DNA of 64,000 bases from Rhizodiscina lignyota (taxonomy: Eukaryota). The stretch covers positions 1,922,001 to 1,986,000 of the forward strand of contig ML978126.1 in NCBI GenBank assembly GCA_010015805.1, in the 5' to 3' direction. The stretch's first letter is position 1, and each line of letters opens with the position of its first letter. The translations under genes were made by a program, and so were the position numbers. A model generated the notes under the pieces. That model worked only from the letters and a program-made list of their open reading frames with translations, searched no databases and was not told the origin of the DNA. Shown here piece after piece: positions 20,078 through 55,409 of the stretch.

Positions 20078-22113
20078 ATGAGTGTCAAGATATGGCTCCT
20101 CGCCATCCTGTACTTCTGCATGGCTTTGGCCGATTTGGAGGCTAGGTCGTACACCGCTGAGGAAGTGGATATTAAATGGCCGAACAACACAATACCCTGG
20201 TGCTACGTTCCACCTTCCTTCGACTTCAACCCTCCATGGCCCCATCCGGATTCGACTCCTGGGTCTCGACCGCAATGGAACAAGCACTTGAGGCATGGGG
20301 CGGCGGCAACGCCGGCCAAGCAAATCTAAAGCTTTCTGTTACCGGTGCATGTGCCAACCAGAAAAATACACTGCGAGTAGGCTTTTCCGTCAGGGGAAGC
20401 CAGTCATCTACTGCCCACGGATACCAAGCCCACGGAAACAACCAGATGAACATCGCCCTTGCACCACAGTTGGGCTGTTGGCTCAACGAGACAGACATTA
20501 ACACTGCAATGATGCACGAGCTAGGACATATCATGGGCTTCATTCACGAACATCAGCGACCTGATGCCGGTAATCACACCAAATTTGACTGCTCCAAGCT
20601 GTTTGATTTCCCTGTCTTCGTAGAGACCGTAGACAGCAGCAACCCTTTGAGCTCTCCATCGAAGTCCGTCCCGACCGACAAACAGGGCGCAATGTCGAAG
20701 TTAGGTGGTGATACCAGCAAATGGGACATCAAGCGACTTTGCACCGACGTCCAATATGCCGGTGCCGCCGGATTCAGCGGTGTGGTTTGGATTCCCCACT
20801 CGAGCGGAGGTGAATACGGGAGCGCATTTGACTCCGAGTCCATAATGATGTACAGCACTTACCAGAGCGGCTATAGAACGGATGATGACGGGAAAAATCG
20901 AGCTGAAGCACTCACATTCACCGACGGCAGTGCGATAGCCGCTCCGCAGAAACCTTCTGATACAGACAAGCAACGATTAGCGGAAATCTACAGCACGCAG
21001 CCCCCGAGCTCAAGGAACATAACGAATTTCGGTCAAATCGGTCTCGATCCTCTCTGGTGGAAGCCTAATGCGCCAAACGCAACGTCCTTCTCCCCGATTC
21101 CAGGCGGGCTTTCCACTATCCCCCATAACATTTCGCACCCTGGAGCGAGTTGCCCACATTCCTCTCGGGAACTGGACGAGGATGTGGAAAAGCGATACTA
21201 CACAATCAATCTGAATGAGCCTGTTTGGCCGAAGAATCAACAAGGAGAACACATCATGTACTGGTGTCTCTTCCACACAGACAACCTAGGTGGTGACGCC
21301 GATTGGCCTGCGCAGTTGGCGACATGGATTGAGGAAGCTCTGTCCTGGTGGGGAGGCGGCGACAATGGGCCCATCAACATCAAACAAAGCAATCTTGGCT
21401 GGTGCAACGACCAAATATTCGAAGGCTACCCCGACTGCCTGCGGATCTCTTTGAGCGAATCAGGAGAAGCATCGTCAACCATGGGCTTCGAGCCGGCGCA
21501 AGGTGCGTCGCGCGCAAACTCAATGATGATCGGAGCGCGGTACAAAGACACCCAATTGCAATTGAAGATCTACATCCACGAGATCGGCCACGTCCTGGGG
21601 TTCGAGCACGAGCACCAACGCCCCGAGTGCTGGACGGGCGACAATCCGCTTGTCATTGCTCCTCAGTGGGACGGGCCTCTCGCGCAGAGATTTTTCACCC
21701 AAGGAGCCGACAACCATCCCGTCATGAACAAGATCGAGGACCCCGAGCTGCGCGTCAGACTGGGCTTTGCCGCAGACGACGAAGAGGCGAGATACGACTA
21801 CGTGAAGCTGACGACGGATTGGTACTACGCGTACTACTGTTCATCGCCGAGTTGGGGCTACCTTCCGTTGCCGCCGAAAGAGGAGCTCGTCTCCAACGGC
21901 ATTCCGATTTACCCCAATCGACCACTCGCGCTTAGTCGCTCCAGAGACGTCGATTGGAACTCGATCATGTGCTATTCGACTTACGACACGGCTGGCGAGT
22001 TGAGGTTCCGAGACGGTACGGAAATCCCCGTAAATATGAAGCCATCGCAGCAGGACATAGTGAGACTGTCGAAATTGTATGGGTTCAAGCCTGGTAGAGC
22101 TTTGGGTTGTTAA
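20078..22113 (+). CDS. Secreted protein with two tandem astacin-like (metzincin) domains; 1-nt frameshift near 20240
   Basis: Signal peptide MSVKIWLLAILYFCMALA lies in one frame. HELGHIMGFIHEHQRPD + SIMMY and HEIGHVLGFEHEHQRPE + SIMCY lie in the long ORF 20176-22113. Confidence 0.8.
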
Positions 22114-38961: not shown

Positions 38962-41574
38962 TCATCTCAACTCAAAGACTTTCGCTTTGTACTTCCCACC
39001 ATCGTCTTCTTGATGCTGATTTTGGAACTTGATGGCTTCGTTATCCATCATCCCATGGACGTAGCATTCTCCAATGACCTTGTAGTAGTATCGTTCGTCA
39101 TCGTTGTTTCTAAGCTGTGGCCGTCGAATGCGTGCCTTTGCGAGAGAAGAACCAAATGTGACCACGAGGCGGATCATCGCCAAGATGGCCAGCGTGGCAC
39201 CAGCCACGAGTAGCACTTCGAGACGGCCGTCCTCGGAGGGGAGAGTGCCCGCCAACATCCAGTACGTAATGAAGAACATCGGGACGGCGATGGCTGCATA
39301 GTACTGGTATATATTCTTCCAATATAGGAAACGCTTCGTAAAGCTCTTGAGATTCAACCAAAGCTCCAGTCGGATATGAGCATACTCATTTGCGAGTTGA
39401 TCGGCGAAATGGTGTTGCGCAGCGCTCAATGCCTGGCGAGGATTTCGGAATTGCAGTAGACTTCTTTTCAGTTCCAGACGTTCTTCTTTAAGATTTTCGG
39501 CATTTTCTCGGTCTCGCTGGAGCCTCTCCTGCTGCAGTCGACGCCTTTGCGCCCTTCTCTCTCTGGTCGCTAAATAACTTCGCTGGATGGTGATTGCTGC
39601 CTCTTCCCTCTCTGCCTGTTGGTCCTCTTCCCGCTCCATCTGCAGTTGTTCATCGCTCTTCTTTACTTTCTGGAGGATGACGGGGACAGTACAGCCATAA
39701 AGGATGCATATGAGATGCCCTGGCTCGGTGTCCTCCCGTCCAAGTCCGAGCCTTCCAGCTGCTGTCCGCATTAACCGCCTGTTTGTGATCACAGCTTCTA
39801 CTCTCCGCATAAATTCAGCAACGATAGAGCATTGCATTTCGTGGATGAGAGTTTTTGCTTCCACCGTCCCACCATGGAGGCCTTTGGCAATTGCCTCTCT
39901 GCACGCAGTTGGGTAGAACGCAGGAGCGTTGCGCCCGTGAGGTCCTCTGCCTGCGACTATGGTCCTCCAAAATTCCTCTGGAGGGTCTTTCTTCGTGTTA
40001 AGCCAGCCTCCAAGAGCAAACCAGTTCTCTGGAATATTGCCCTTCCGAGCCACTTCCTGGACTTGGTCGACTTCGTCCAGAACAAAGCCCTCGACATATA
40101 TGCTACAGTGTTTCTTCCTCGTCTTGAACTTGAGTTGTTTGAGATTGACTGGCCTTGTCCCTGCCGCACTGTAGTTGCGATGCCCAGTCATTGGCAATCC
40201 AACCAGAGGATCCGCATTAGCGCGCGCCATTTTGCGGTCCCACATGGTGAATGCTGCGTCTTTCAGACTCGGAATCCAGGACGGTAGCTCTTCGAGGTGG
40301 ATATTCCACTGCCGTCGGCCGGCTCCTGTGTGGCCTTCCATTGGTGGCGGCGGCCTCTCGGAGGATATCGGTGGTGCCCAGGGATGGCAAAGAATGTCCA
40401 AGGCTCTATTGGGCTCAGTCTGGTGGATTGAGAATTCGACGAATTCCCGGCAGAGTTCAGGATACGGCTGTTCGTAATCAACGTAAAATGTTTTGGATGC
40501 AATGTTCTCCCCCCAAGCACTGAGCTCCCGCCGAGCAGAAACGGAGAAGTCTTTCACGCGCAGACTGGCGGCTCGGGGAGTCGCGTCGCTAGCAATTGAG
40601 AGCAGCGCATAAATAGTATCGTGTGGCCGGCCTGCCTGGAAGACGGTAAGGGTTGAAACAAGGTGCTCTAAAGTAAGGAGAGGCTCTTCAAACTTGTCCA
40701 CTGATCTGCGAAAGAGGTTATTGAGATTCTCAACCAGGATAGTGGCACCAAGAGCAGGAACATGGCCGAAGAAGTCGGGGATATGGTTCGTTCGCACGTC
40801 CTTCTTCATGACCTCTGACAGTCGATGTGTTGCAGTCTCGACTTCAACAAAGAGAGATACGGCATCGGAAAACTGTTTCCACGTAATCTTCTCGTCTCCG
40901 CAATACAGTAAGCCCTCTTTAGCCAGAGCGATCTCTTGAACGACCCATCTTCTAGAGAACCAGGGGACATTCATCAATCCAATAAGCGCTCTCCATTTTT
41001 CCGGGATGCTCAGATTCTCGCAGAGACGGTCGAATCCCCAAATGTCGAGGACCTCGTTCTTGATGAAATCCATAGCAATCTTTGGTCCACCAGTAACCTC
41101 CACGCCCTCTCCAAGCCATACACAGACTCTTAAGCAATTCCCATACACGTCGGACATCATCGGCACCTGGTGATTCTTCTCATCATAGTCTTTTTGGTTG
41201 ATGCTAATAGCGTCCACCCAGAGCACGCGTGGTATGTTCTCATACCGCAAGGCCTTTAAAGCTGCTGCCAGATTTGGTTTGATGTCGAATTTGAAGGCCT
41301 CCCAAGTCGGGTTCTGCTTACAGATGATACGAATCGGCACCATCTCTCCCACGTCTCCCCAAGTCCACGACAAAGCTTCGTAGCTCTCTTGCAACTGCCA
41401 TGGGCCGTGCTCTTGTTCCCCTAGTTTCCTTTCGCTGGGAGGTACAGTAAATAGCTCACATTCGATTCCGCTTTCTTTGCTTTCGGCCGGATGCAGCCGA
41501 AGAAGGCGGAGAGCGTTGGGGTGCGGTAATGGGACGTCGGTGTACCGAAAATCCCGAACAGTTGTACCAGCCAT
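38962..41574 (-). CDS. HET-domain protein (het-6-like) with C-terminal coiled-coil/TM insertion (HET1)
   Basis: LRLLRLHP, YEALSWTWG, LWVDAISINQKD, QVPMMSDVY, WFSRRWVVQE, LPSWIP, LYGCTVPVIL, IGECYVHGMMDNEA. Confidence 0.92.
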   Translation of the reverse strand: MAGTTVRDFRYTDVPLPHPNALRLLRLHPAESKESGIECELFTVPPSERKLGEQEHGPWQLQESYEALSWTWGDVGEMVPIRIICKQNPTWEAFKFDIKPNLAAALKALRYENIPRVLWVDAISINQKDYDEKNHQVPMMSDVYGNCLRVCVWLGEGVEVTGGPKIAMDFIKNEVLDIWGFDRLCENLSIPEKWRALIGLMNVPWFSRRWVVQEIALAKEGLLYCGDEKITWKQFSDAVSLFVEVETATHRLSEVMKKDVRTNHIPDFFGHVPALGATILVENLNNLFRRSVDKFEEPLLTLEHLVSTLTVFQAGRPHDTIYALLSIASDATPRAASLRVKDFSVSARRELSAWGENIASKTFYVDYEQPYPELCREFVEFSIHQTEPNRALDILCHPWAPPISSERPPPPMEGHTGAGRRQWNIHLEELPSWIPSLKDAAFTMWDRKMARANADPLVGLPMTGHRNYSAAGTRPVNLKQLKFKTRKKHCSIYVEGFVLDEVDQVQEVARKGNIPENWFALGGWLNTKKDPPEEFWRTIVAGRGPHGRNAPAFYPTACREAIAKGLHGGTVEAKTLIHEMQCSIVAEFMRRVEAVITNRRLMRTAAGRLGLGREDTEPGHLICILYGCTVPVILQKVKKSDEQLQMEREEDQQAEREEAAITIQRSYLATRERRAQRRRLQQERLQRDRENAENLKEERLELKRSLLQFRNPRQALSAAQHHFADQLANEYAHIRLELWLNLKSFTKRFLYWKNIYQYYAAIAVPMFFITYWMLAGTLPSEDGRLEVLLVAGATLAILAMIRLVVTFGSSLAKARIRRPQLRNNDDERYYYKVIGECYVHGMMDNEAIKFQNQHQEDDGGKYKAKVFELR

Positions 41575-42504
41575 CGCGTAATTAGATCATTCGTTTCCTG
41601 AAGAGTAAGAGACCGAGCGCATGTCTCAAGTAATGCGCCCGACAGCGTGCACGCGAACCGTTTCGCATCTTCGGACGGGCATTCTTCGCCCCTTTTAAAC
41701 AAGCATTTTGAGGCTCAAATCCAAGCATTTATTGGCAAAGGTTGAGGCCGCCGGCCGCGACCAGGTGCGGCCTCGAGATGCATGATGGCGTTCAGCTGGT
41801 TGCTGTCTTTAGCGAATCTCGCCCTCGGTCGCCCTTTTTGACATGGGGATCGTCTGCAGCCAGGCTTGTTGGAGTTAACCTCTTCCGTCTCCGCACGGAT
41901 CGCTTCGATCATTGGGAGGGCGGGAAACGAATCGCGTTGGCCGAGGCAACTGAAGCGCAAGCTGCGTGAGTCGAGAAAAGGCAACTGAAAAGTTCGTCTG
42001 CCTTCCGAGGAATAATAAGAAGATGAAAAGGGGCGGGGGAGTGTGGCGTCCCCTGTTATCGTCGGCACGATGTTCGGGCCGGTCCTGAGTCCCAGCCCCC
42101 TTGCGGCTCTGCGGCTCCTTATTAGGCGCTCTCTGACCCTAACCCTCACACCCTGAATATTAAGGTCACCCCATGAAGGTGTGCTGCGCAACTCTCTTGG
42201 AATGGTTTCGTCTCTTTTTCTTTGGGCTGAAGGAACACACGAGCGTCGCGATGGAGGCAGGACAGAAAAGCGTTCCGCTAACCACGCCTTGATACTTTCA
42301 GCTTGCGGATACTCTAACGCATTTCGGGCGGTCCAGCAAGGCTCAGAGCCTCAGCCCTCGTTAGTTCCGACCAGTGAGAGGAGTCTGTCTTAGGCCTCCG
42401 ATTTAGCGGTTAAGCAGGTAAACCGATTAAAACTTTCAACTCCGTTGCTTTGATATTTGCAGTACTCTCAAGCGTTCTCTGAAGCATACTCTTCTCCATC
42501 AACT

Positions 42505-43986
42505 ATGGCAGCGTTCTCTTCAAACGGCAACCCAAGCTTCGGTTCTCTCAATTTGGCTCCGTTCTTCGAACTCCCTGCTCTTCCAAATATCGTCGCAGAG
42601 TGGGCAGCCATTATTCCATTGGTCTGCCATCTGGCCAGCTACAGACGAGACTACAGAACGTTGGGAGACGTCGCGCTTCTTGGTTGTATCAGCCTCAGCC
42701 TGTTCCCCAAGTTGGGCACTTTGGCTGGTCTCAGTCGTTTGTTACGTCGAGGCCCCGAATTTTTCGATGAGGCCAGTACACGAGGCGGCGCCACATGCAC
42801 AGTGTGGGACGTACGTTGGGGTAGTGTTTTTCCCTGCGCAAACGGCGCTGCTTGCGAGTTCGTGAAGGACTTTTTCCGGCGTCGCAGGTCTACGCCAGCC
42901 GTAACAATGCCAGAGTCTGTACAAGAAGCTGGTTCTAAAAGCCGTCCAATGTCGTGCCCAATAGAAAAGAGTCCGGATGAAAAGGGCACCCTGAGAACTC
43001 AAGCAAGCGAAACACTGCAGGCTTCAGAGAGAGCTCGAGCCCACCAGGAAATCCATGCCGGAGAGGAGTCCCAAGAAGCCACAAAAATATGTACAAGCAG
43101 TAGTTCGGACTCAGCAACGCGGCATGGAAATTGTGTCTTTCGACGATATCAGACTCTCCACGTTCTGCGAGCTCGGTTCACTACCAAGCGCAAGCGCTCT
43201 ATGTTCGACGGTGCCCGCCGTACAATCAATTTCGTAGGAATCGCGGCCATGCCTATTCTCTCAATTCTCCTGGTTTCGGTTCTCGCCATGTGTGGCGCTT
43301 ATGGGACAGCGGTTATTGTCCTTTGCAGCATGATCTCTCAAATTGCAGCTAAAAACACCATCATCCGACGGCCTCCTGGGTACCTTCAGTCTAATGAATC
43401 ATGTGAAGATGCATGTATGCTTATGGCACCGCACCAGAATGCTCAAGAGTGGACTTTGTTCATCGGAGACCGCGGCATAGTGGATACTCTGCTCAACAAA
43501 CCAATGATCATGGTCCAGGATTGCAGAGCAAACTCAGTAGCCGCAGCGTGGTTCACTGCAGCTAACCTCTTACAGCTTCTGGCTATGACATTTGTTGCCG
43601 GTCAGAAGGGGTGGGACGGTGTCTGCCTTGTGATACTCATGACAGCTGAATTTGCTTTTCAGTGGCGTACTCAGAGCATCAGGCTAGCGAAGGCATGGGT
43701 AGCTGAAGCTGGAATCGATGCACAGGTCAATTCGTTTCAATTTGGCAGCCGAATGATCATGTTGGGGGCTATTGAAAAATTCCTTGGTTGCAAGAGAACA
43801 GTTTGGATGGACCAAATTATTCCACCCCATCCCAGACGCGAGGCTTGGCTCTGTAATCTTTTCGAGGAGCCGTTTGATGAAGCTAGCTTCATACCGTCTG
43901 ACATTGCCTGGATAAAGTTGAGCGGTGCCTTGGCCACTCTCTCGGCCAACATATTACAAAGAACCACGATGGCCGACGAGGTTTGA
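42505..43986 (+). CDS. Uncharacterised multi-pass membrane protein
   Basis: Long intronless ORF (first ATG at 42505) with several hydrophobic segments (IAAMPILSILLVSVLAMCGAYGTAVIVLC; AAAWFTAANLLQLLAMTFVAG; GVCLVILMTAEFAF). Confidence 0.8.
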   Translation: MAAFSSNGNPSFGSLNLAPFFELPALPNIVAEWAAIIPLVCHLASYRRDYRTLGDVALLGCISLSLFPKLGTLAGLSRLLRRGPEFFDEASTRGGATCTVWDVRWGSVFPCANGAACEFVKDFFRRRRSTPAVTMPESVQEAGSKSRPMSCPIEKSPDEKGTLRTQASETLQASERARAHQEIHAGEESQEATKICTSSSSDSATRHGNCVFRRYQTLHVLRARFTTKRKRSMFDGARRTINFVGIAAMPILSILLVSVLAMCGAYGTAVIVLCSMISQIAAKNTIIRRPPGYLQSNESCEDACMLMAPHQNAQEWTLFIGDRGIVDTLLNKPMIMVQDCRANSVAAAWFTAANLLQLLAMTFVAGQKGWDGVCLVILMTAEFAFQWRTQSIRLAKAWVAEAGIDAQVNSFQFGSRMIMLGAIEKFLGCKRTVWMDQIIPPHPRREAWLCNLFEEPFDEASFIPSDIAWIKLSGALATLSANILQRTTMADEV

Positions 43987-44050
43987 CGGTGTCTGGAGAT
44001 TCCTTCACCTGAGAACAATGATGAGAGCGATACATGTCACACAATGCCGC

Positions 44051-46630
44051 CTACACGATCAGCATCTCACCTCCTTCGAAAAATGAAATATTTTCATCAA
44101 CCCATTTAAAGACACCTAACCAATGCCAGGAGCGTCCTTGGTCCTTACTAGCGGTTATTGCTGCAACCGCACCAGTATAGTCCCCACGATCGTCTCCGCC
44201 AATGTACAGAGACCGGCCGTCGTCAGCTGCTGGCTTCAATACGCGGACACGAGCGTCTCCTAAAATCTCAGCGATCGTTTCAAAAGCCAGAGCAGCATCA
44301 GGAAAACCATAAACCTCTGCGTCTTCTGGAATATCTTGCCCTGTATCGGGAGCCTGGCCGAATTTAATATCCCATTCCGCGGGGTAACGCTCACAAAGAC
44401 GCTCTCGGTACTCTTCCAAAAGACTGGCATCGAACTCTGTGTACATCCAAACACTCAGGAGGCCACTGTCCGTAATGCGACCCTCGTAGCTTCCGTATCC
44501 ATCGTAACTATGGTATCGGGCGGTGTAAGCTTGTTCGATTTCATCGCATCGTATGTGTCGAGCTTGTGGCAAAATCGTTGGAGTCGACGGAGCCCAGCCA
44601 AAGCCTCGAGCATTCTGAATTCTAGGCGCGCTGGACATCAAGTATGCCGTTTTCACGGTCCTTTGGTCTTTCCAAAGGTTGAGAACATCACCCAGATTCT
44701 TGGAATTGTTCAACAATCCCCAAATTATGACATCATCACCAGGTCTTGAGGCATGTCGCTGACTCAAGATATATCCTGCCTCTTCTGCCGTCTTGCGTTG
44801 CGTTTCGTCGAGCGTCGGAATCAAATGCCCTGCGCTGCCTATGAGTGTCGCCAATGATATCGAACCATCCTCCCAGACACGGCGGGTGAGGTCCACGAGT
44901 GATATCGTCTCATCTCCCTTGCACAAAATATGTACAGCTTGGTTACCTCGTGTGGCTTCAAGCATTGTCCAAGCGCGAACATTCCAGTCACAAACCAAGA
45001 GCACCGACAAGACTGTCTCAAGGCTGCCAATATCACCATTCGCCAGATCTACAGATTGCACGTCCTGGTCGCTAACCAAAACGGCTTTGCTGGTAGCGAA
45101 AATCGTGTTGATCTTCGCAATCGCTTCTTTCCGCAGTCTGTCGTCTGTAGGAATGCATGTGGAGTCGATCCAGTACGAGTCACATTCATGCTTTGTAGCC
45201 AGGTCGGAATAACGTGCGTGAAGGCAGCGGTTTATACCGTCTTCAGGTCTTCCACCTTGTCCATGGGCCCAGACGTGCGATATTGCAAGAGTCTGCTCTG
45301 AAGCAACACAGTATTGCAGGTCCTTTTTGCTGCTGTCAACACGCACGGCGCGGGGGCTCTCCACCTTGAGATACGATGCTTCATTCCAGAAAATCCTGCC
45401 ACAGGTTGAATCGCAAGATGGGATGTGGGCCGATTGTGCCAATGTTTCTGCCCCGGTGAACCGCTGGCAAGAACTCGGATCATCGCCCAGGCATGATTTG
45501 CTCGACGATTTGCTACAGCGGCCCGGGCGATCGCCGAAATGGCTCGTAAATCTCTCCAATAGACAGCGGAAATCCAGGCCGATGGCGGTTCTACTCCGTC
45601 GCAGCAGTTCTAAAGCCCAATTGCAGAGATATTGGGAGGTGCTAGCGCCTCGATAATCAATATCCATAAGACGAGAGTCACTGAGTTCCTCGAGCCTTCC
45701 TACACCGCGTACAGCAACTAAGTCATTCCAATCCGCTGAAGAACCATGATGGAGTTGCGCGCCGACTATACCGTACAAGTGCAACATCGTGGAACGCTGC
45801 CACGCGCCCCATAAGAAGGTTCTGACTACATTCAGTCTCTGCGGGTCATTAATCGGAACATCCCCTTCGGGAAAATATATTGTAGAATGCGGTAGCTCGC
45901 CTGTCGTATGACAGAAAGCGATGTAGTCAGTGAAGATTTCGAATTCGTTTAACAGTTGCGCAAGGGTGTCCACGTATTTGTAGGTCGCATACGAAAATTC
46001 CGGACTGAGTTGGGTTTTTTGTGAAGCGAGCATGACCAGCAGTGCAACTGAATTGTCGTCTATGTGATTTGTGACGATAAGATCGCCCCATATGTCCTGC
46101 GTCGTGTATTTCAGCATCTCCAACTCTGACTCTGACAGTGCCTCAGAGTTAGACATCTGGCTGTTAGATGAAAGCTTGTGGCGAGCATCATCGATAAGCC
46201 ACTCTGGAGACCATTGAGCTCTTCTCATTCTTTGCGCTATCGTATCTGTCTGTGCTTGTGGATTTCGCCCTGCAATACGGAAAGCGAGCAGTTTCATGGG
46301 AGTGGGAGGTAGTCGACGTAATATGTGTGATGCTCTCTGAAAGACTGTCTTCTCTAGATTCTCTCCGTCCATACAACTCGATCCTCCAAGCATCAAATTA
46401 GGAAGCAAACTGGAGAGTCGTTTGTTGAGCTGGACCAGATGCTCCGTAGGGTTCGAGATCGCCTGGAACAGCTGGACACACAGTGGAGCTAGCTGCTCAT
46501 GCCTTTGAATCTCATCAACTTCACTAGCCATTGGGCAGTGTAGACCCGATCCCCAGTCTTCGTTAACGCGCCTCACGATTGTGTTCAGAGAAAGGCGAGG
46601 TTTTGGCGATGATTGCGTTGATAGATCCAT
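44051..46630 (-). CDS. Divergent HET-domain protein with a long N-terminal extension and a Cys-rich segment (HET2)
   Basis: LAISHVWAHGQGG, YWIDSTCIP, AIAKINTIFATSKAVLV, DWNVRAWTMLE, SQRHASRPGD, GFGWAP. Confidence 0.85.
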   Translation of the reverse strand: MDLSTQSSPKPRLSLNTIVRRVNEDWGSGLHCPMASEVDEIQRHEQLAPLCVQLFQAISNPTEHLVQLNKRLSSLLPNLMLGGSSCMDGENLEKTVFQRASHILRRLPPTPMKLLAFRIAGRNPQAQTDTIAQRMRRAQWSPEWLIDDARHKLSSNSQMSNSEALSESELEMLKYTTQDIWGDLIVTNHIDDNSVALLVMLASQKTQLSPEFSYATYKYVDTLAQLLNEFEIFTDYIAFCHTTGELPHSTIYFPEGDVPINDPQRLNVVRTFLWGAWQRSTMLHLYGIVGAQLHHGSSADWNDLVAVRGVGRLEELSDSRLMDIDYRGASTSQYLCNWALELLRRSRTAIGLDFRCLLERFTSHFGDRPGRCSKSSSKSCLGDDPSSCQRFTGAETLAQSAHIPSCDSTCGRIFWNEASYLKVESPRAVRVDSSKKDLQYCVASEQTLAISHVWAHGQGGRPEDGINRCLHARYSDLATKHECDSYWIDSTCIPTDDRLRKEAIAKINTIFATSKAVLVSDQDVQSVDLANGDIGSLETVLSVLLVCDWNVRAWTMLEATRGNQAVHILCKGDETISLVDLTRRVWEDGSISLATLIGSAGHLIPTLDETQRKTAEEAGYILSQRHASRPGDDVIIWGLLNNSKNLGDVLNLWKDQRTVKTAYLMSSAPRIQNARGFGWAPSTPTILPQARHIRCDEIEQAYTARYHSYDGYGSYEGRITDSGLLSVWMYTEFDASLLEEYRERLCERYPAEWDIKFGQAPDTGQDIPEDAEVYGFPDAALAFETIAEILGDARVRVLKPAADDGRSLYIGGDDRGDYTGAVAAITASKDQGRSWHWLGVFKWVDENISFFEGGEMLIV

Positions 46631-47141
46631 CGTATGCCGAAGGAATTTGGAGAGAGCTACTGTTGGCGGCTGCGAAGGAAGTGTGATGCGCTTTTGACTT
46701 CTCGACTTAGTTTGCTAATGATTGGCAACATAACTAAGTACAGTAGTGTTGTCAGCCTTGCTCCCAACAGGAAGCGCGGGCACAAGGCTGACGCACCTGA
46801 AGATTCGTGAGGTTCATAACCACTCACTGATGCCTGGAGCTGCAGCACAAGGGCGACACGAAGACCGAGAGTTTGCCGACAAGCTGCCGATAGCATTTTG
46901 TATCGATAGAGTATGCTTATACTCTGATCGAACTAAAATTGATTGCTGGAGAAATTTAAGGTAAGATACAAGCCTCAGAAAAATGACGTTTCTGATCTAT
47001 GCGCAAAACTGAATAGCACCGATGGACCAGCTACGAACGCCTGTTGGATTGACCGCTTTTCCATATCGCCATTCTAATAAATCCAGATACGCCCCTTCTC
47101 ACACGATTACGCTCGCATTCCATATAGTGTTCTAATCAGCA

Positions 47142-48788
47142 TCAAGGTATGCTCTCCTCGCTGCCCCTCACTTTACTCTCATTCTCGCTCGACTCCTCAC
47201 TGCCCCTCACTTTACCCTCTTTATCGCTTCCCTCCTCTCTGGCTTCCACATTCTTTACCCCGTGGTGCCAACGCAGGATCTTCGGACGATTTGGCACGAT
47301 CAGCTGCCGGATCTTGATGTTCGCGACGTGCATTACGGCTGCGGCGTGTCTAGGGCCCGGCACACCGTCTGGAAAGATGATATACAGCCCAGATTGCAGT
47401 GACGTGTCTGGCCGGAACTTGTCATGGTATGCCTTCTTTCCACCAACGGGGAGGGCGCGGAATGTACGCTGGTAGGCTGAACGGGAAAGGCTGGAAACAA
47501 ATTTTGGCATGCCGACTATCTCACCGAGGTTGGGCATTGGCTCATAGCCCAGGCTGAGATAGGAGATGCCCGCGCGGTTGAGGAGGGCCATGGCGGAGAA
47601 GATGAGGAGGTCGGTAACACCTCGCGGAGCGTCATGGGTGGCGATACAAGGGTCGATATGGAAACCGCTGTTGGCACCGAGTTTTCTGAGTGCGGCGAAC
47701 CCGTTGGGCCTGCCATCCGGACCTCTAGTGTAGATGTAGATCATCAGTTCAGGGAGAGCAAAGGGGTTGTAGACGGTGATAAAGGCCTGGAGCTTGCCGT
47801 TGTACTGGCGGTTCCGCTCTTCGCGCCAAGTTTCGTAGATATCCATCAGCTGTTTTTGCAGGATGGGGTTTGTTCCAGTGGCGGGACTGTACACTTCGAC
47901 GCTGATGTTTCCTTTGTTAGGATCGAGAAGCTGCTTGTTCTGGCTGATTATGCGCTTGCCTGCGCTCTCGAAAAGGACGGGATTTGTCGCCGGATTGAGA
48001 ACGCATTCCTCCCCGAAGTGCATCGTGACCCATCCTTGCTCCCGGGCGAAGCTCGCGAGCTGTCCACTGGCCCCTAAGAATGCGATGCCCAATCCTTTCT
48101 TCTTTCGATACCTCTTGAATTCTTCCAAGACTGCCGGATATTCGTCAGGGCGGCAGAGTGGATCCCCGCCGACGACAGCGATTTTGTTCTCGACCTTGAA
48201 GTAGAGTGCCGCATCCATGGTACTACTAAGGAAGAAACTGTAGCTCTGATCCAATATTCCCATGTGTGATACTCGCCCATAGCGCTCAATGAGCGACTCT
48301 AGAGCAGCCATGGCGGCGAAATCACCTAGTGAGAAGATATTGTTGCCCCTCTTCCACTTTGGAACTGGACTTGAGCGCGTATAGTTAGGGGAAGAGACGT
48401 GTATATGGGAACCCGTGAAATGGAGTAGGGTTTGAGGGTTTGGGCGAACTGTTTCCGAACTTCCCGTAGTGGTTCCCGGGCTTCCCGTAGTGGTCCCAGA
48501 GCTCCCCATAGTGGTCCCCGAACTTCCCATAGTTGTAGTCATCGAAGCTGAGCTTGACAGCGTTGTCGACCACTGTGTAACGATCAAATGCCGCGCTAAA
48601 TCGAGGGGGTCCGGAACGTTCTGAAAGGTGTAAAGGAGCGCATCTGCCATGTTGTTTCCCACGCGCTGGAACAAATACTCGCGAGCTGTAGATTGGGTAC
48701 ATTTAGCTTCCAACTGTCTCTTCGTCTCTTCTCCTCCCGCATCTGCCCTGGGGCCGTTTATCCTTGCATTCTTGGGTTTTCGAGCCAT
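47142..48788 (-). CDS. Stand-alone DUF2156 (MprF/LPG-synthase C-terminal-like) tRNA-dependent aminoacyltransferase, ErgS-like
   Basis: RYGRVSHMGILD, AVVGGDPLC, FGEECVLNP, GFAALR, APRGVTDLL, YLSLGYEP, KKAYHDKFRPD; no synthetase domain fused. Confidence 0.8.
   Translation of the reverse strand: MARKPKNARINGPRADAGGEETKRQLEAKCTQSTAREYLFQRVGNNMADALLYTFQNVPDPLDLARHLIVTQWSTTLSSSASMTTTMGSSGTTMGSSGTTTGSPGTTTGSSETVRPNPQTLLHFTGSHIHVSSPNYTRSSPVPKWKRGNNIFSLGDFAAMAALESLIERYGRVSHMGILDQSYSFFLSSTMDAALYFKVENKIAVVGGDPLCRPDEYPAVLEEFKRYRKKKGLGIAFLGASGQLASFAREQGWVTMHFGEECVLNPATNPVLFESAGKRIISQNKQLLDPNKGNISVEVYSPATGTNPILQKQLMDIYETWREERNRQYNGKLQAFITVYNPFALPELMIYIYTRGPDGRPNGFAALRKLGANSGFHIDPCIATHDAPRGVTDLLIFSAMALLNRAGISYLSLGYEPMPNLGEIVGMPKFVSSLSRSAYQRTFRALPVGGKKAYHDKFRPDTSLQSGLYIIFPDGVPGPRHAAAVMHVANIKIRQLIVPNRPKILRWHHGVKNVEAREEGSDKEGKVRGSEESSENESKVRGSEESIP
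48457..48540 (-). repeat. In-frame 21-bp tandem repeat (about 4 copies) encoding TT(M/T)GS(S/P)G
   Basis: Protein reads TTMGSSGTTMGSSGTTTGSPGTTTGSSE; DNA units such as gaacttcccgtagtggttccc. Confidence 0.85.
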
Positions 48789-49439
48789 TTCAGTCCTGTT
48801 TCCACTGGAAAATACTAGTTATGGAAAGGCAAGCCTGATGTGCAGAAGAGTGCGTATGACAAAAAGGAGTAATGTTTGAAGTGCCCAGGCGGAACGAACA
48901 GAGAGCGACCATCATTTAAAGAAATTGGAAGAGAAATAAAACCACAAAGTTGCTTGCAAAGCATTGTACACGTAGAGATTGCGCCTCAGTCCGCGATATT
49001 CGCTATGAAGATGCGTCAGACCACCTACTCTGCTCCCAAGTTGGCCTTTGTGCCTTCGCGTCACTTCCCCTATTTGGCTGAGCATGCGATCTCCGCCATG
49101 CTGATTACGACATGCCCTCGTCAGAAGCACGTGACTTGCTCTACAGGAGGAAGCCCGCGGTATCTCGTCCGGCATTGTGGGAATCGAGGTGGAATTGACG
49201 CTTGAACACCTGTCTGTGTACTCTGTAAGGGAGAGAAAATACAGAGTTTTGCACCCTGGCCGCGTGGCACTCTTGCACTGCCAAGACGCTATTCCAAGTT
49301 TGGATAATATACCACAGCCGAGGCAGCTAAGCCCACTTCACAGACAGGATACTATGCAGACCCGAATAATGCAACCCGATCGAGCTCGACATTTGTCCAG
49401 CCTCACTAGGATCTTGTGGTGCTTGTTTGAACGCGCATC

Positions 49440-49907: not shown

Positions 49908-52042
49908 CTAAATGATTCTAATTCTCCGAAAACTTAACGCATCATCCCAATTCGCACTTTCTTGAACACACGCAAAATAATCCTCGATGTAGAAATACCC
50001 AGCTCGTTTGTAGACGCCACCTGCCGCAGACTCCAGTACTAGGCCTTTTATTTCATGATTGAAGCCTGGAGTATGTAAGGCAGACAACTCAAGAAGCCAG
50101 TATTCGTGACAAGAAGTCCTTCGGCTCCCCGACCAGAGCCCTCCATCTCCAGACCCCGCCGATCGGAAACAAGCAGGAAGCGCCGCTCCAGCGTCTAGGT
50201 ATATTGCAGTAGACGAACACTCGTCATCACCCTTCTGTCGGTGCATCTCTGCTAATTCACCGCAGTCGACCCTCCGAACCGGCGCATAGAGCTCCAAGAA
50301 TCCACTCTTGATAGCGCACAAAGGAGCCTTATTAGATACTGGGACAATCTCCACAGATTGAACCTCCGCTCTTGTGTCGTGCTGCATAGTGGAGTTGTGA
50401 AAGTCAACAGGCCCGTCGACGCTAGCCCATGACCAGCTCGGGGCACGATATTGTGCTGGACGGCCGAGTGGTACAGAGGCTTTGTAAAGGGACCACCGGC
50501 TACCCTGGCACCAGAGCAAGCTTGGTATTAGATTGCTTTTCCAGATCCCAGCGAGGTACATGTCCTTCGCATAGAAAGCAAGCTCTGTCGCTATCGCAGA
50601 TATTGAGGGGAGCTTGTCCTGTCCCACTGTCAGATGCCGTGATGTGACTTCATGCACTATATCGGCCCAGCGTAGGTGTGCCATCTGCCGTGTTTGATGA
50701 AGTGTATCGTCATCCCTTGGCTCATCATCGGTGGCATCTGTCTCGGATATCGTGGAGTTTCTGATGGGTCCGATGGTGCCATACACAGCTGAGAGCCTCT
50801 CCCAAGGAGCGCAGTGTCCATCAGCAGAAGTGCCCGAGATGCAGCGCCAGAGCGTCTGACTGGAGCTGAATATTATGGAGCGGGGAGAGAGCAAAGATTC
50901 CTGGAAAGTCCATGCGCGAAAGTCAATTGGTTCCTTCGGACTGCTTTCGCGGCGCATCTCTGCTAGAAAGATGTCATCTAAGTAGCCATCTGGGCAGCGA
51001 AAGGACAGCTTAAAGGCTCGCTTCATCCACGAGATGACAAGGTCGTTGTCGTGGAGAAATCCATCTTGACACGTCCGCGATCGGGCGGCGGAGAGAGTGA
51101 CTGCCGCGTTTTTGTAGATTCCACTCATGTTCCCAATCTCGGTATATTTATCGTTGCTGTCATCTTGAATAATGCAGAGAGCGTCGACCCACAAGTACCG
51201 AATGCCTAACTGTTTCGTAAACAATATTGCATCTCGTATGGACTTTGCTAAGGCCTCTAGCTTTATCTGCCTGCAATTCGCAGAATAATTCATTGACGTT
51301 GTCATGAATTGTGACGAACCCCAGCAGTAGCTTAAAGCCGCATAGGATCCTGACCTTCCCATCGTCTCGAGAAGTTTGATGTTGGTGAGGTTGTTTAGGT
51401 TGTTTGAGTCCAAGTCAAGAACCCGAGTCGGCAGTGGAGCAGCTGACAGCTTAGGGCATCTCTCATGTTTCTCGGAACATTTTGCGATCCAGGATCGAGC
51501 AGTACGAACAGTATTACTAGACGCTGGAAACGGGTTGGCTGGCGAGGATTCGACGTATTGCGACAGTTTGGAGCCTGCCATGCTCAGGCCAAATGAGATT
51601 GAGCACAGCTATAATGACAGCAAATGGAAATGATAGAGAGTACTGACTCACCGGGGAGCGCAAATGCGTTGAAGTACGTCAGCTGGGTCGTCCTCTTGTC
51701 GTGGTGCTCAACGAGGAACTGGGCTGTAATGCTGCCTCTGAATTGTTGGAAGATCCTTGCGCCCCAGTCAAGTTGGAGCTTTATCGACGCAGATGAATCA
51801 GAGATGTCAGACTCTGACAGCTTGCTAGCGAGCTGGGCCGCAAAGCCGCAGGCCCGGATGTCGTTCAGCTTGGATACGCTGCATAGTGGTGTCCCTTTCC
51901 CCAATTGAATGTCCCATCGCTCATCCAAATTTTGAAAGACTGTACAGATCGGGCATACATTGCAACAGGTGGACTCAATACCAGCGATGTTAAAGTCAGC
52001 ATCATGGAATGTCGAAAGCGGCAATTTGCGAAAATCTTGCAT
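49908..52042 (-). CDS. HET-domain protein (pin-c/tol-like type); 2 exons (HET3)
   Basis: WIAKCSEKHERC, LPTRVLD, YAALSYCWG, YLWVDALCIIQDD, RAWTFQESLLSPR, DKLPSISAIA, YRAPSWSWASVDG. Intron 51575-51651 joins the upstream exon in frame. Confidence 0.92.
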
Positions 52043-52595
52043 GGCTTCAAGACTTCGTGGAACTGGCGTTTACGGGTGTGGAGAGGTGAAGTCCAACATT
52101 TGAGCTGTCATCGTATAGCAGAGACATTGATGCTATCTCGGACATGAGCATGTCAACGTAAGAAAGGAGGGCAAAAGCATTTCTGGCTGGAAAGCTACTG
52201 ATGTTAAGCGTGAGCGTACGTGAGGTTCGAACGGCAGTTCAGGGGAACGCTAAACCCCGATCCTTGCCGGTGTTCGGCTTCTCCCACAGTGCCATTCGTG
52301 AGCCGAGCGCCGACTTCACCCCTGCATGTGGCGCAGCCGCAAGGGCCAAAACCATTTTGGTGGTGACACGAACTGGCAAGCACACCCACTTACTCCATCG
52401 CTCTCTACACTTGCCGCGTCAAACTCTGTCCTCTGGAACATTGCCAAATGGCTGCCTGCGATTCTGAAGAACTTGCGAGTTGGCTCGCCGAAAGAGATCG
52501 CAGGTGCGGGCAGGTAAGCCACCGTAAACATGTCGCGACATCGACGCGTTTTGTTCCCTCGACCACCAGTCAAATCTTGACCACAACCACGCGCA

Positions 52596-55409
52596 ATGAA
52601 CGCGTCAGTTCTTGATTTTTGGCTCGGCCATGTCATCCTTTTGTACGCAAGTACATTGATTGCTGGTATCTACGATGCGATCATTGTCACCGCTGTCGAA
52701 TTGCCCATCAGCTATCTTCTCGGCGACTACTCCAACAAGAGCTCGTTCATTATCCGAAAACTCGGGGGTTTGCTGCTTATCTGGTGGTGGTGTCATCCGT
52801 GTGCCGGTGCAGCCGATATCCTCGCAGACTTCTCGAAATGGGCGTCTCATGATGCTCCCAATGGACCGCCCGTGGCTACCAAAACCTCGATTGCGCATGC
52901 AACAGTCTTCTTCGTCTCGGCCATATGGACAGCACTGGATTGGCAACATTTTCTACGTACGATGATCTGCATGTTTAAACCAATTAGCCACCAATTTGTA
53001 ATTGCTGTCACCGGTATGCTGTTGCCCCAAACAGCAATCCTTGAGCATGGAACAGCTACTGCATATTGGATCTGCGGAATGGCACCATATTCCACGTGCT
53101 GGGGAGCCCTAGCCTACATCGCGGCCTTGCGGTATAGATCTCCATATGTACTGGATGTCTACTTCCTGGTGTGTTTCATACTCGACATTACTTGGTCTCG
53201 CACGAGCATTCGGAGTCGCACAATCGGAAGATTTTGCATCGTTATGCCATGGAGCATCATGAAAGCGTTGATTACTCTACCTTTTGCGAATATTTGGGTG
53301 TTTAGGCAGTCGCTCAAAGCATTGTATTGGCAGGCACGACATCTCGTCAGGCAAAAATGGCTCTCCAGCCATCATAAGCAATCCAAACGAAGAATGAGAG
53401 AAGACTTCAAATACAGACCTCTCCAACCCGGCCAAATACGCCTCTTGGAGGTGATGCGAAACCCGAGAAATCTCGAAATAGAATGCAGGCTGCGGCACGT
53501 TCATCTATCAAAGGCTAGCGAGTACGACGCGATTTCTTATACCTGGGGAGCAGAGTCTCCAACGCACGGTGTTGATGTCGATGGTCAATGGATCAAAGTC
53601 AGAACGAATGCATACGAGCTACTTCAAGACCGGGCAGTCATCAACGAGACGAGGGTCATCTGGATGGACTGTCTGTGTATTAATCAAAGAGATCATGACG
53701 AAAAGAGATTGCAGATTCCTATGATGCCCAGGATCTACCGAAAAGCCAAGCGAACAATCATATGGCTGGGTAATATCAAATACGCTGAGCAATGTCTGTC
53801 GTTGTTTCGAGATCTGGTAGACCGTCCTTGGGATTTCTATGCCCCGGAAGAGATACCGGAGGCAGTGAAAGCTCCCCCGAAGTGGCAAAAGAAAAGGCCG
53901 ATTCGTTTCTCTATGGTGGAAGGACTTGACCTCCGATTTCGGGCACTGGCGAGGATCTTAGAGCATGCCTGGTTCTGTCGAATCTAGGTGCTTCAAGAAG
54001 TTATCTTCTCCGACACAATCCACATCCGTGCTGATGGAGTCTGGATAGACTGGGAACTCTTCACTTCTACCATGAAGCTGTTTTCTGACCCAGAGCCGTA
54101 TATGCTCTGTGGTCGAGAGACACTGTATCTTAACATGAAGGATATCAAAGTTCTGGCCAAGATCTTTCTGTTAACACAGGCGAAAGATGTCGAGCGAGCT
54201 CGGTTTCTGAACAGTCGACCGAGGCCGAAGCTGGTCAATCTCCTCTCGAACCTCTGGATCGCAGAGTCGTCCGATGCTCGAGACGTGATTTACGGCCTGC
54301 TGAACCTTTGCTCTGACGGCAGAGATGAATGTCTAGTTCTAGATTATCGCAATGAATCGACCACCGAGTCTCTCTATATCAAGTATGGAGAACTTTGCGT
54401 GCAACGAAATGAAATCCAGGAAATCTTGTACCTGGCAGGAATTGGGTATCCCCGAAAGCTGTCCATTCCCTCTTGGAGTCCAGACTGGACCTCAATTCCG
54501 ACGGTGCCGACACTCCGAAAGAGGCATTACAATGCGTCCGGTGAAAATCAAGGCAATTTCATGCTCGTTTCATCGACAATGCTTTCTGTCAGCGCGGTAT
54601 TGGTCGACAATATCATACAGATCGCGGACAAAGCTTTTACATCGGCCAATTTCACCTACAGGAGTCTACCTAATATGTCTACACTTGCGCAGAGTCGGAT
54701 AGAAGTTGACTCGCAGAACATGGCGAAGTCTTTACCCGACGAGTATGACGGTGGTAAGCATCATGGCTTGCAATCCCGCGACGAAGCATTCTGGCGAACG
54801 CTCATTGGAGACACGGAAGCCCTTTCCTCGCGCACACATTCTAGGACCGACTGCACAACACCAACGATACAATCTCCGTACAACTTCGAACTGAGATATG
54901 AACGTCCGGCGTCGCCAGAATATGGCAGACTCTTCAACACTGAATGTGCGCTTCGAGATCAGCGCCTTTCCAGCCTAACACCCAAGTCAAATCCGGCGAA
55001 GAGCAAGAGTCTCTGGGCCAGAGCTCAATGCGAGTCTAAAGAGGATCCTGATCTCGTGGCCGCTTGGAGACGCGGGTACCAGAAGGTGCCCGATAACCCA
55101 GCAGTGATTCTAGACAGCGACATGCGGTTTACGGATGCTTTTGTCACCTGTGCCAGTGGCCGGAAGTTTGCCATAACGGAGAATCCAGTCACCGGAAGAA
55201 AGCGAATGGCGCTGGTTCCACCTGAAGCGCAGGTCGGAGACAATGTCTATGTTATTCATGGTATGGAGGTACCGTTTGTGATGAGGCGCTCGACGAATCC
55301 TTTCCCCGAGTATTGGCTCAAGATGGTTGGCGAGTGCTTTGTACATGGAATTATGGATGGCGAAGCAGTGCACAACGGGGCGGTTACAGAGCTGATATAC
55401 GTCTACTGA
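52596..55409 (+). CDS. Membrane-anchored HET-domain protein interrupted by one in-frame TAG at 53985-53987 (HET4); edited/readthrough gene or pseudogene
   Basis: ORFs 52596-53987 and 53988-55409 are contiguous and in the same frame: YDAISYTWG, IWMDCLCINQRD, WFCRI*VLQE, DARDVIYGLL, PSWSPDW, VGECFVHGIMDGEA. N-terminus is hydrophobic; an upstream exon (52326-52503) is possible. Confidence 0.88.

What the first reader, a model, noticed from the sequence alone, without database searches (positions are those of the whole stretch)
42505..46630. Tail-to-tail membrane protein and HET gene, 64 bp apart: possible two-component module
Seen: an uncharacterised multi-TM ORF converges on HET2 with only 64 bp (43987-44050) between stop codons, so 3' UTRs very likely overlap. 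It is also transcribed divergently from HET1. Established: het-c/pin-c and vic6/pix6 are linked HET plus partner pairs. Inference: an undescribed sensor-effector or toxin-antidote pair.
Basis: inference. Interest (0 to 1): 0.7.

Follow-up and report, generated by a model that had tools for sequence, protein, structure and literature searches.

The report
Fungal HET-enzyme and membrane partner module
An unstudied fungal membrane protein of unknown fold is kept next to, or fused to, a HET (TIR-like cell-death) gene in many fungi, even when the type of HET gene changes, which makes it a candidate for the unknown partner through which some HET proteins act.

Summary
The 493-aa membrane protein has no Pfam family and no solved fold match. 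It has a HET neighbour in both own-genome copies and in 18 of 36 metagenome loci (15 of 19 independent loci with informative flanks; background about 4-5%). It also has one in 18 named-genome pairs with consecutive tags or accessions (one two apart). Three records fuse the two proteins. Orientation varies (convergent, divergent, tandem, fused), so the 64-bp gap is incidental, and the HET1 link was not seen elsewhere. One clade has swapped its partner for a HET-E-like protein only 24% identical to HET2, yet the membrane protein's core is unchanged. All 44 partners examined keep the W..R.W...E glutamate. Best guess (0.4): a Thoeris-like pair in which the HET/TIR enzyme makes a nucleotide signal and the membrane protein responds. 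Sensor/scaffold and antidote roles remain open; binding, enzyme activity and expression are untested. One natural insertion that disrupts the membrane gene beside an intact HET gene argues against an obligate antidote. Ten paper searches and this scan's notes showed no description of this family.

The parts
42505..43986 (+). Gene for a 493-aa polytopic membrane protein of an unnamed ascomycete family; no Pfam family, no solved fold match
   Evidence: 230 homologues; 401 representatives at E<=0.001; pLDDT 86.9, pTM 0.83
42586..42636 (+). Predicted TM1 (res 28-44) with conserved E32, W33, P38, L39; N-terminus inferred to face the lumen/outside
   Evidence: helix H28-42; family hydropathy 1.44, K+R 0.9 before and 3.2 after; conservation
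42976..43101 (+). Disordered, variable insert (res 158-199)
   Evidence: pLDDT <50; unconserved in consensus
43225..43353 (+). Predicted TM2-TM3 hairpin (res 241-283) after a strongly basic, inferred cytosolic stretch
   Evidence: helices H234-262, H266-283; hydropathy peak 2.37, mean K+R 7.25 in res 211-240 and 0 in the loop
43465..43506 (+). Most conserved soluble motif G321-M334 (G321, R323, D327, N331, K332); with R214, Q216, E298, H310, N312, N113, R416, R444 a candidate ligand pocket (inferred; not checked in 3D)
   Evidence: >=88% conserved over 91 sequences covering all partner types; invariant columns
43537..43668 (+). Predicted TM4-TM5 hairpin (res 345-388) with conserved Q357, T362, A365 and the GWDG loop
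   Evidence: helices H341-367, H370-387; hydropathy 1.18 and 1.3; conservation
43987..44050 (.). 64-bp spacer between the two stop codons; not a conserved feature (30, 53, 110 and 329 bp in the four other independent convergent pairs)
44051..46630 (-). HET2: 859-aa soluble protein with an N-terminal helical domain, a Cys/His-rich region, a HET/TIR-like domain and a C-terminal beta domain (the database's gene call for this locus is 826 aa, probably from the next Met)
   Evidence: 165 homologues; pLDDT 88.8, pTM 0.92; no hydrophobic window >1.6
44810..45298 (-). HET/TIR-like domain (res 445-607); invariant E558 in WNVRAWTMLE (codon 44957-44959), taken to be the TIR-type catalytic glutamate (equivalence recalled/inferred, not superposed residue by residue)
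   Evidence: TIR, SEFIR, ThsB, SARM1, nucleoside deoxyribosyltransferase entries on this range at Z 3.9-4.7, below the tool's trust level
45401..45625 (-). Cys/His-rich region (C336, C372, C388, H402, C406, C410), probable zinc site (inferred)
   Evidence: >=90% conserved in 20 partners including fusions
38962..41574 (-). HET1, divergent neighbour of another HET type; not part of the conserved module in the loci examined
   Evidence: Pfam HET E 1.5e-26; no tblastn hit in 38 loci L016-L053

Best explanation
A conserved two-gene (sometimes fused) immune or cell-death module of filamentous ascomycetes. SHOWN: the membrane gene travels with a HET-domain gene across many fungi, in every orientation, as a fusion, and with at least two barely related HET protein types. 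INFERRED, most likely: it works like a bacterial Thoeris pair. The HET protein senses a trigger through its variable accessory domains. Its TIR-like domain, which keeps the presumed catalytic glutamate, turns NAD+ (or a related nucleotide) into a small signal. The signal binds the conserved, polar, cytosolic domain of the roughly five-helix membrane protein, which then opens or disturbs a membrane. Confidence that the genes are functionally coupled is about 0.93; the figure given is for this specific mechanism.
For: Linkage: both own-genome copies lie beside a HET2-type gene (chance for the second copy about 7e-4). 16 of 36 metagenome loci carry a HET2-type gene and 2 more a HET-E-like gene; background 3.5-5%. 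28 of 59 named homologues share a contig length with a listed HET protein; 18 of these have consecutive locus tags or accessions (8 by tags; 10 of 10 tested by accession, one of them two apart in one assembly and consecutive in another). Fusion: P0290, P0293 (CHGG_10924) and P0305 (ASPCAL00269) join a HET2-like part to a full membrane domain, with an extra hydrophobic segment between them as the inferred topology requires. Partner swap: a 26-row clade (SH-aLRT 98) holds both loci with HET-E-like partners; the prediction that its named members have that partner was borne out. The two partner types are 24% identical over 160 aa, E 0.014, yet only 2 membrane-protein positions are fixed differently between the groups, and deep co-phylogeny is absent (r 0.14, p 0.15, 12 pairs). 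This fits a diffusible product better than a lock-and-key interface. The W..R.W...E motif is intact in 20 of 20 HET2-type and 24 of 24 HET-E-like partners. Precedent: TIR genes beside SLATT, ion-channel and other TM effector genes in bacteria (10.64898/2025.12.03.692087, passages). How HET kills is stated to be unknown (PMC10890737, passages).
Against: No biochemical or expression evidence. NADase activity of HET domains is not established (PMC10197012, passages; 'ND' in Table 1 of PMC12881547). The TIR-fold matches are weak (Z 3.9-4.7). The membrane protein resembles no known nucleotide-binding domain or channel, and the pocket is inferred from conservation only. A HET domain alone suffices for death when overexpressed, and this genome has 2 membrane genes against at least 151 HET matches, so this cannot be the dedicated partner of HET domains in general. 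4 of 19 independent informative loci lack a HET neighbour (L021, L026, L031, L042/L046/L053; two of the four carry broken membrane genes). 31 of 59 named homologues were unmatched (lists capped at 120 rows, so not proof of absence), including three organisms where both protein types occur on contigs of different length (P0028/P0386, P0078/P0389, P0082/P0465). The fusions are gene-call records whose DNA I could not read; L045, in the same clade, has the two frames separate, 43 bp apart.
Confidence: 0.4

Rival explanations
1. The membrane protein acts upstream, as a sensor, guarded protein or membrane scaffold that binds the HET/TIR domain directly and switches it on; the HET domain is the killer (for example by NAD+ depletion).
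For: Fusions tether HET to the membrane. A HET domain alone can kill. In het-B a linked non-HET partner triggers the HET protein (PMC10890737). Both proteins place their conserved parts in the cytosol (inferred).
Against: The same membrane core serves partners 24% identical to each other, and deep co-phylogeny is absent. The membrane protein's outward loops are only a few residues long and its core is conserved (dN 0.18 against dS about 2.1 for L030 vs L031), unlike a diversifying sensor.
Confidence: 0.25
2. Toxin-antidote or damping: the membrane protein removes, exports or degrades the HET product, or holds the HET protein inactive.
For: Intact membrane genes nearly always have a HET neighbour. 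Conserved His/Asp/Glu/Arg residues could be an enzyme site. A shared small-molecule substrate would also explain the partner swap.
Against: L032/L033 (identical sequences, one case): an 804-bp insertion with about 108-bp direct terminal repeats and a 5-bp target duplication interrupts the membrane gene while the HET gene is an intact 874-codon frame; another copy elsewhere in that genome is not excluded. 2 of the 4 close HET2-type loci of this genome have no partner within about 7 kb, one of them with a frame break. The dependence looks one-way: membrane gene on HET, not HET on membrane gene.
Confidence: 0.15
3. A heterokaryon-incompatibility locus of the het-c/pin-c, vic6/pix6 or het-B kind, in which alleles of the two genes from different individuals trigger death on fusion.
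For: Linked HET-plus-partner het loci exist (het-B, PMC10890737; het-c/pin-c seen as a reference title only; vic6/pix6 recalled). L031 and L032, 98-99% identical upstream, differ at the position of the HET gene.
Against: Only 4 of 132 HET genes in P. anserina are incompatibility genes. The one near-identical allele pair compared, L022/L023, differs little (pN 0.007, pS 0.018). The HET-E-like-partnered pair has stayed together at about 55-61% mean identity across several orders.
Confidence: 0.12
4. No functional link: the genes hitch-hike together in HET-rich variable regions.
For: This window holds four HET genes; HET genes are reported as non-randomly distributed (PMC10197012); many loci are related by descent.
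Against: 15 of 27 independent loci are paired even counting short contigs as misses (P 5e-5 at an assumed 20% background, loci treated as independent). Linkage survives inversion into four arrangements, fusion, and replacement of the partner by another HET type. HET1, also adjacent here, is not retained.
Confidence: 0.05

Closest known systems
Bacterial Thoeris systems with membrane effectors (type II TM-Macro; SLATT type VII; ion-channel type X; 10.64898/2025.12.03.692087, passages; PMC11204291, listing only)
   Same: A TIR-fold protein gene kept beside a gene for a membrane protein with a cytosolic domain; modular re-pairing of TIR and partner.
   Different: Eukaryotic; HET rather than canonical TIR; the membrane protein matches no PADLOC model, no Pfam family convincingly and no solved structure. 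No signal molecule or defence phenotype is shown. Here one partner family takes several HET types, whereas the paper describes one TIR cluster with several effectors.
Podospora anserina het-B (Bh HET-lectin protein and Bp PII-like protein; PMC10890737, passages)
   Same: Two adjacent genes, one with a non-NLR HET domain; the partner's family are nucleotide sensors in bacteria.
   Different: Bp is a small soluble PII-like protein; this partner is a 450-500 aa polytopic membrane protein. Balanced incompatible alleles are not shown here.
Neurospora het-c/pin-c and Cryphonectria vic6/pix6 (het-c/pin-c: reference title only; details of both recalled)
   Same: HET gene linked to a non-HET partner; Neurospora HET-C is a membrane protein (recalled).
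   Different: No Het-C or other convincing Pfam match in the window's protein or 40 other family members; partner replacement and fusion are seen here; allorecognition untested.
Fungal two-gene immune clusters: gasdermin plus protease, NWD2 plus HET-S (PMC10197012, PMC12881547, passages)
   Same: Activator and membrane-acting protein encoded side by side.
   Different: No gasdermin, HeLo, NLR or protease domain was detected in either protein; the proposed link is a HET-made small molecule, not proteolysis or amyloid templating.

Membership tests
HET-domain proteins (PF06985) | HET2 carries a HET domain | tested here: met
   E 2.9e-4, 21.6 bits, just under the cut-off for P0002; relatives L020 and L016 pass it; conserved SHVW, YWID and W..R.W...E blocks
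HET-domain proteins (PF06985) | TIR-like fold | tested here: inconclusive
   res 444-611 align with TIR, SEFIR, ThsB, SARM1 and deoxyribosyltransferase chains at Z 3.9-4.7, rmsd 3.8-5.7, 89-118 aligned; below the tool's trust level but all on one range; Foldseek found nothing at E<=0.001
Thoeris-type TIR signalling systems | TIR-fold gene stably linked to a distinct effector-like gene | tested here: met
Thoeris-type TIR signalling systems | Catalytic glutamate retained | tested here: inconclusive
   E558 invariant, motif present in 44 of 44 partners; its equivalence to the TIR catalytic Glu is recalled, not shown by superposition
Thoeris-type TIR signalling systems | TIR makes an NAD-derived signal that activates the effector | not testable with these tools
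   needs biochemistry
Thoeris-type TIR signalling systems | Homology to ThsA/ThsB or other catalogued defence proteins | tested here: not met
   0 PADLOC v2.0.0 (2023) families at E<=1 for 6 proteins; that library predates types V-XI, which were not tested
het-c/pin-c type allorecognition locus | Partner has a Het-C domain | tested here: not met
   no Het-C hit in P0001 or 40 other members; only two sub-cut-off hits (EccD, DUF5313) in single members; that Pfam holds a Het-C model is recalled
Two-gene het/vic loci (het-B, het-c/pin-c, vic6/pix6) | Divergent balanced alleles and death on fusion of unlike strains | not testable with these tools
   no population data; L022/L023 nearly identical, L031/L032 differ at the HET position
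Toxin-antidote pair | Loss of the antidote not tolerated while the toxin gene is intact | tested here: inconclusive
   one counter-example, L032/L033, and unpartnered HET2-type genes; supply from another copy not excluded
Known fungal pore formers (gasdermin, HeLo/MLKL-like) | Sequence or fold match | tested here: inconclusive
   no Pfam hit; best structural match Z 6.2, rmsd 8.5, 149 aligned to an ABC transporter, the rest generic helical bundles; whole-protein search only

The most novel reading that the evidence does not exclude
This family is a dedicated receptor-effector for a HET-made nucleotide signal: a Thoeris-like TIR-to-membrane signalling system native to fungi, built on a new membrane fold, which can be re-wired to unrelated HET sensors because only the small molecule links them.
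Probability: 0.35. Interest if true: 0.9.

Novelty: new variant of a known kind. Interest (0 to 1): 0.72.

Why it matters
[quoted passage not shown] A partner family tied to HET genes by linkage, fusion and partner exchange gives a concrete two-gene system, including single-chain fusions, in which HET enzyme activity, its product and its target can be tested together. If the signalling model holds, it extends TIR small-molecule signalling, known from bacteria and plants, to fungi and adds a membrane effector of new fold. If the protein is instead a regulator, it is still a new, widespread HET partner family.

Tried and rejected
Complex prediction of the two proteins was not available, so direct binding is untested. 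No RNA holder was listed, so expression and 3' UTR overlap are untested. Fold searches of the membrane protein gave nothing clear: Foldseek PDB 0 at E<=0.001, VIA-align best Z 6.2 and none at Z>=8, viral library 0 at E<=0.001, PDB sequence profile best E 1.1. Single domains were not folded separately, so a known sub-fold is not excluded. ESM Atlas returned only unnamed clusters, nearly all ascomycete; two more distant clusters at TM 0.46-0.62 hint at a larger superfamily and were not followed. The EccD hit in one member (19.5 bits, cut-off 30) was rejected as hydrophobicity. UTR overlap or antisense control as the mechanism was rejected because orientation is not conserved. HET1 as partner was rejected. 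Strict co-evolution was rejected: Mantel r 0.80 (20 pairs) and 0.62 (16) fall to 0.14, p 0.15, with one member per close cluster (12 of 20 pairs); r 0.83 for 24 HET-E-like pairs is expected from shared descent. L031 was not counted as a proven loss: an AT-rich block of at least 7.7 kb follows the gene and the HET gene may lie beyond it. Paper searches (six locus tags, 0 papers) showed no description of this family; subscription journals are mostly missing and no supplements were read. A word search of 10.64898/2026.04.20.719644 found no mention of fungi or HET; passages of 10.64898/2026.10.12.758604 concern another question.
Full report
1. Observation. The window is fungal. ORF 42505-43986 (+) encodes 493 aa (P0001) and ORF 46630-44051 (-) encodes 859 aa (P0002). 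Their stops are 64 bp apart. HET1 (41574-38962, -) is divergent. P0001 has no Pfam hit; P0002 has a weak HET hit just under the cut-off. The window holds four HET genes and the genome at least 151 HET matches (217 candidates, 150 scored), so adjacency in this window alone means little.

2. The membrane protein. It belongs to a family of 230 homologues and 401 representatives at 50% identity; Atlas clusters are unnamed and ascomycete. AlphaFold2 on 110 sequences is confident (pLDDT 86.9, pTM 0.83). No solved or viral structure matches. Helices 28-42, 234-262, 266-283, 341-367 and 370-387 coincide with family hydropathy (peaks 1.44, 2.37 for the TM2-TM3 pair, 1.18, 1.3; a further peak of 1.16 at res 62-80 may be re-entrant). 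Lys+Arg is high on one side (7.25 per sequence in res 211-240) and low in the two short loops, which implies N-out, C-in and a cytosolic alpha/beta domain (inferred). In agreement, three of five members with longer N-termini, and the three fusions, have an extra hydrophobic segment before TM1. Polar residues N113, R214, Q216, E298, H310, N312, D327, N331, K332, R416 and R444, and E32, Q357 and D371 in or near the helices, are at least 88% conserved in 91 sequences. One divergent pair shows purifying selection (dN 0.18, dS about 2.1).

3. The HET protein. The model (pLDDT 88.8, pTM 0.92) shows a helical N-terminal part, a Cys/His-rich region, the HET domain and a beta-rich C-terminal part. Residues 444-611 align with TIR, SEFIR, ThsB, SARM1 and deoxyribosyltransferase chains at Z 3.9-4.7. 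That is weak alone but agrees with the published HET-TIR relationship (PMC10197012, PMC10890737; passages). E558 is invariant.

4. Linkage. (a) Own genome: the only other copy of the membrane gene (G000:C2:918762-920213) lies in tandem with a HET2-type gene; chance about 7e-4. Conversely, two of the four close HET2-type loci have no partner within about 7 kb. (b) Metagenomes: of 36 loci, 16 carry a HET2-type gene and 2 a HET-E-like gene. Collapsing near-duplicates by tree and sequence (grouping mine) leaves 27: 15 paired, 4 unpaired with informative flanks (L021, L026, L031, L042/46/53; two of these broken), 8 too short on at least one side. A background of 3.5-5% gives P about 1e-13 to 1e-15 for 15 of 27, and 20% gives 5e-5 (relatedness ignored). 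The 15 are convergent (4), tandem with the membrane gene first (3), tandem with HET first (1) and divergent (7). (c) Named genomes: of 59 named homologues among the 120 rows shown, 28 share a contig length with a listed HET protein. Eight have consecutive locus tags (SUNI508_04802/3, BP5796_12716/7, CHGG_10923/4, NUW58_g3538/9, ANO14919_085370/80, G7054_g8017/8, PFICI_11264/5, PG995_004240/1). Ten of ten further pairs tested have consecutive accessions, one being two apart in one assembly. Ten rest on contig length only. The 31 unmatched are undecided, since each list stops at 120 rows; in three organisms both types sit on contigs of different length. The pairs span Sordariomycetes, Leotiomycetes and Eurotiomycetes (class assignments recalled).

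5. Fusion and partner swap. P0290, P0293 (CHGG_10924) and P0305 (ASPCAL00269) carry a HET2-like part followed by a full membrane domain and fall in one clade. P0290 is 973 aa on a 3105-bp contig, which leaves little room for introns, but I could not read the DNA, and L045 of the same clade has two separate frames 43 bp apart. Loci L024 and L039 have a HET-E-like neighbour and fall in a 26-row clade (SH-aLRT 98; quick tree, 90 rows). I predicted that named members of that clade have the same partner, and the search with P0378 bore this out (24 same-contig pairs). That partner is 24% identical to HET2 over 160 aa (E 0.014). Only positions 317 and 359 of the membrane protein are fixed differently between the groups. 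All 44 partners examined keep W..R.W...E. Co-phylogeny exists within recent clades but not among deep lineages (r 0.80 for 20 pairs; 0.14, p 0.15 for 12). The constant element of the partnership is therefore the HET catalytic domain, not the accessory domains, the orientation or a fixed lineage.

6. Natural losses. In L032/L033 an 804-bp element with direct terminal repeats and a 5-bp target duplication interrupts the membrane gene while the HET frame is intact. L031, 98-99% identical upstream, has an intact membrane gene followed by at least 7.7 kb of AT-rich DNA where L032 has the HET gene. Single cases, but neither gene looks indispensable to the other's survival.

7. Mechanism. Shown: stable coupling, fusion records, partner exchange, conserved Glu, conserved polar core. 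Inferred: cytosolic topology, NAD-type activity, a ligand pocket, membrane disruption. I favour a Thoeris-like signal-effector pair (0.4), because a small molecule best explains one conserved receptor serving very different HET proteins, and bacterial TIR genes are known to pair with membrane effectors (10.64898/2025.12.03.692087, passages). Against it: HET enzyme activity is unproven, HET alone can kill when overexpressed, and two membrane genes cannot be the linked partners of 151 HET genes. Rivals are an upstream sensor or scaffold (0.25), an antidote or damper (0.15), an allorecognition locus (0.12) and hitch-hiking (0.05).

8. What is known. It works like Thoeris, het-B or the gasdermin-protease clusters, but is not a member by homology. 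Ten paper searches showed no description; subscription papers and supplements were not seen. This scan's notes hold no look-alike sequence and nothing near this place; one note, e1-7565767, reports a different HET-plus-membrane pair in the same genome (not checked).

9. Verdict. Real, conserved and apparently undescribed; a new variant of the TIR/HET-plus-partner kind with a membrane protein of unmatched fold. Interest 0.72.

Noticed in passing
L064:3425-9079 (G000:C14 about 41425-47079): A distant HET gene (859-codon frame) lies head-to-head, about 250 bp away, with a 943-codon frame bearing a P-loop-like motif and TPR repeats, a likely NLR-HET pair.
   Followed up: no
window 47142-48818 (-): Frame with a phosphatidylglycerol lysyltransferase C-terminal domain (PF09924, E 3e-31), a mostly bacterial domain (recalled), directly upstream of HET2; it has short T/S/G tandem repeats near the N-terminus.
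   Followed up: no
window 49908-51608 (-) and 52581-55409 (+): Two more HET genes. The second has a long hydrophobic N-terminal region before its HET domain and an in-frame stop or intron at 53985-53987.
   Followed up: no
window 20176-22113 (+): 645-codon frame with two HExxHxxGxxHEH motifs, a doubled astacin-like metalloprotease by eye (label recalled).
   Followed up: no
L032/L033:8964-9767: 804-bp insertion with about 108-bp direct terminal repeats and a GGTAT target duplication, a small non-autonomous LTR-like element.
   Followed up: partly
L020 and L021: Two copies of the membrane gene in one locus: tandem in L020 (with a HET2-type gene upstream and a NACHT/TPR gene downstream), convergent in L021 with no HET found.
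   Followed up: partly
P0212 (FGSG_13410): 1007-aa record that appears to join the C-terminal half of one HET2-type gene to the N-terminal half of a second, probably two tandem genes merged by annotation.
   Followed up: no
G000:C10:34824-38520: Broken HET2-type pieces with stops and frame changes, interrupted by another gene; no membrane partner nearby.
   Followed up: partly
ESM Atlas structure rows 2-3: Two further unnamed ascomycete clusters (344 and 492 aa) share the fold at TM 0.46-0.62, hinting at a larger superfamily whose gene neighbours are unexamined.
   Followed up: no
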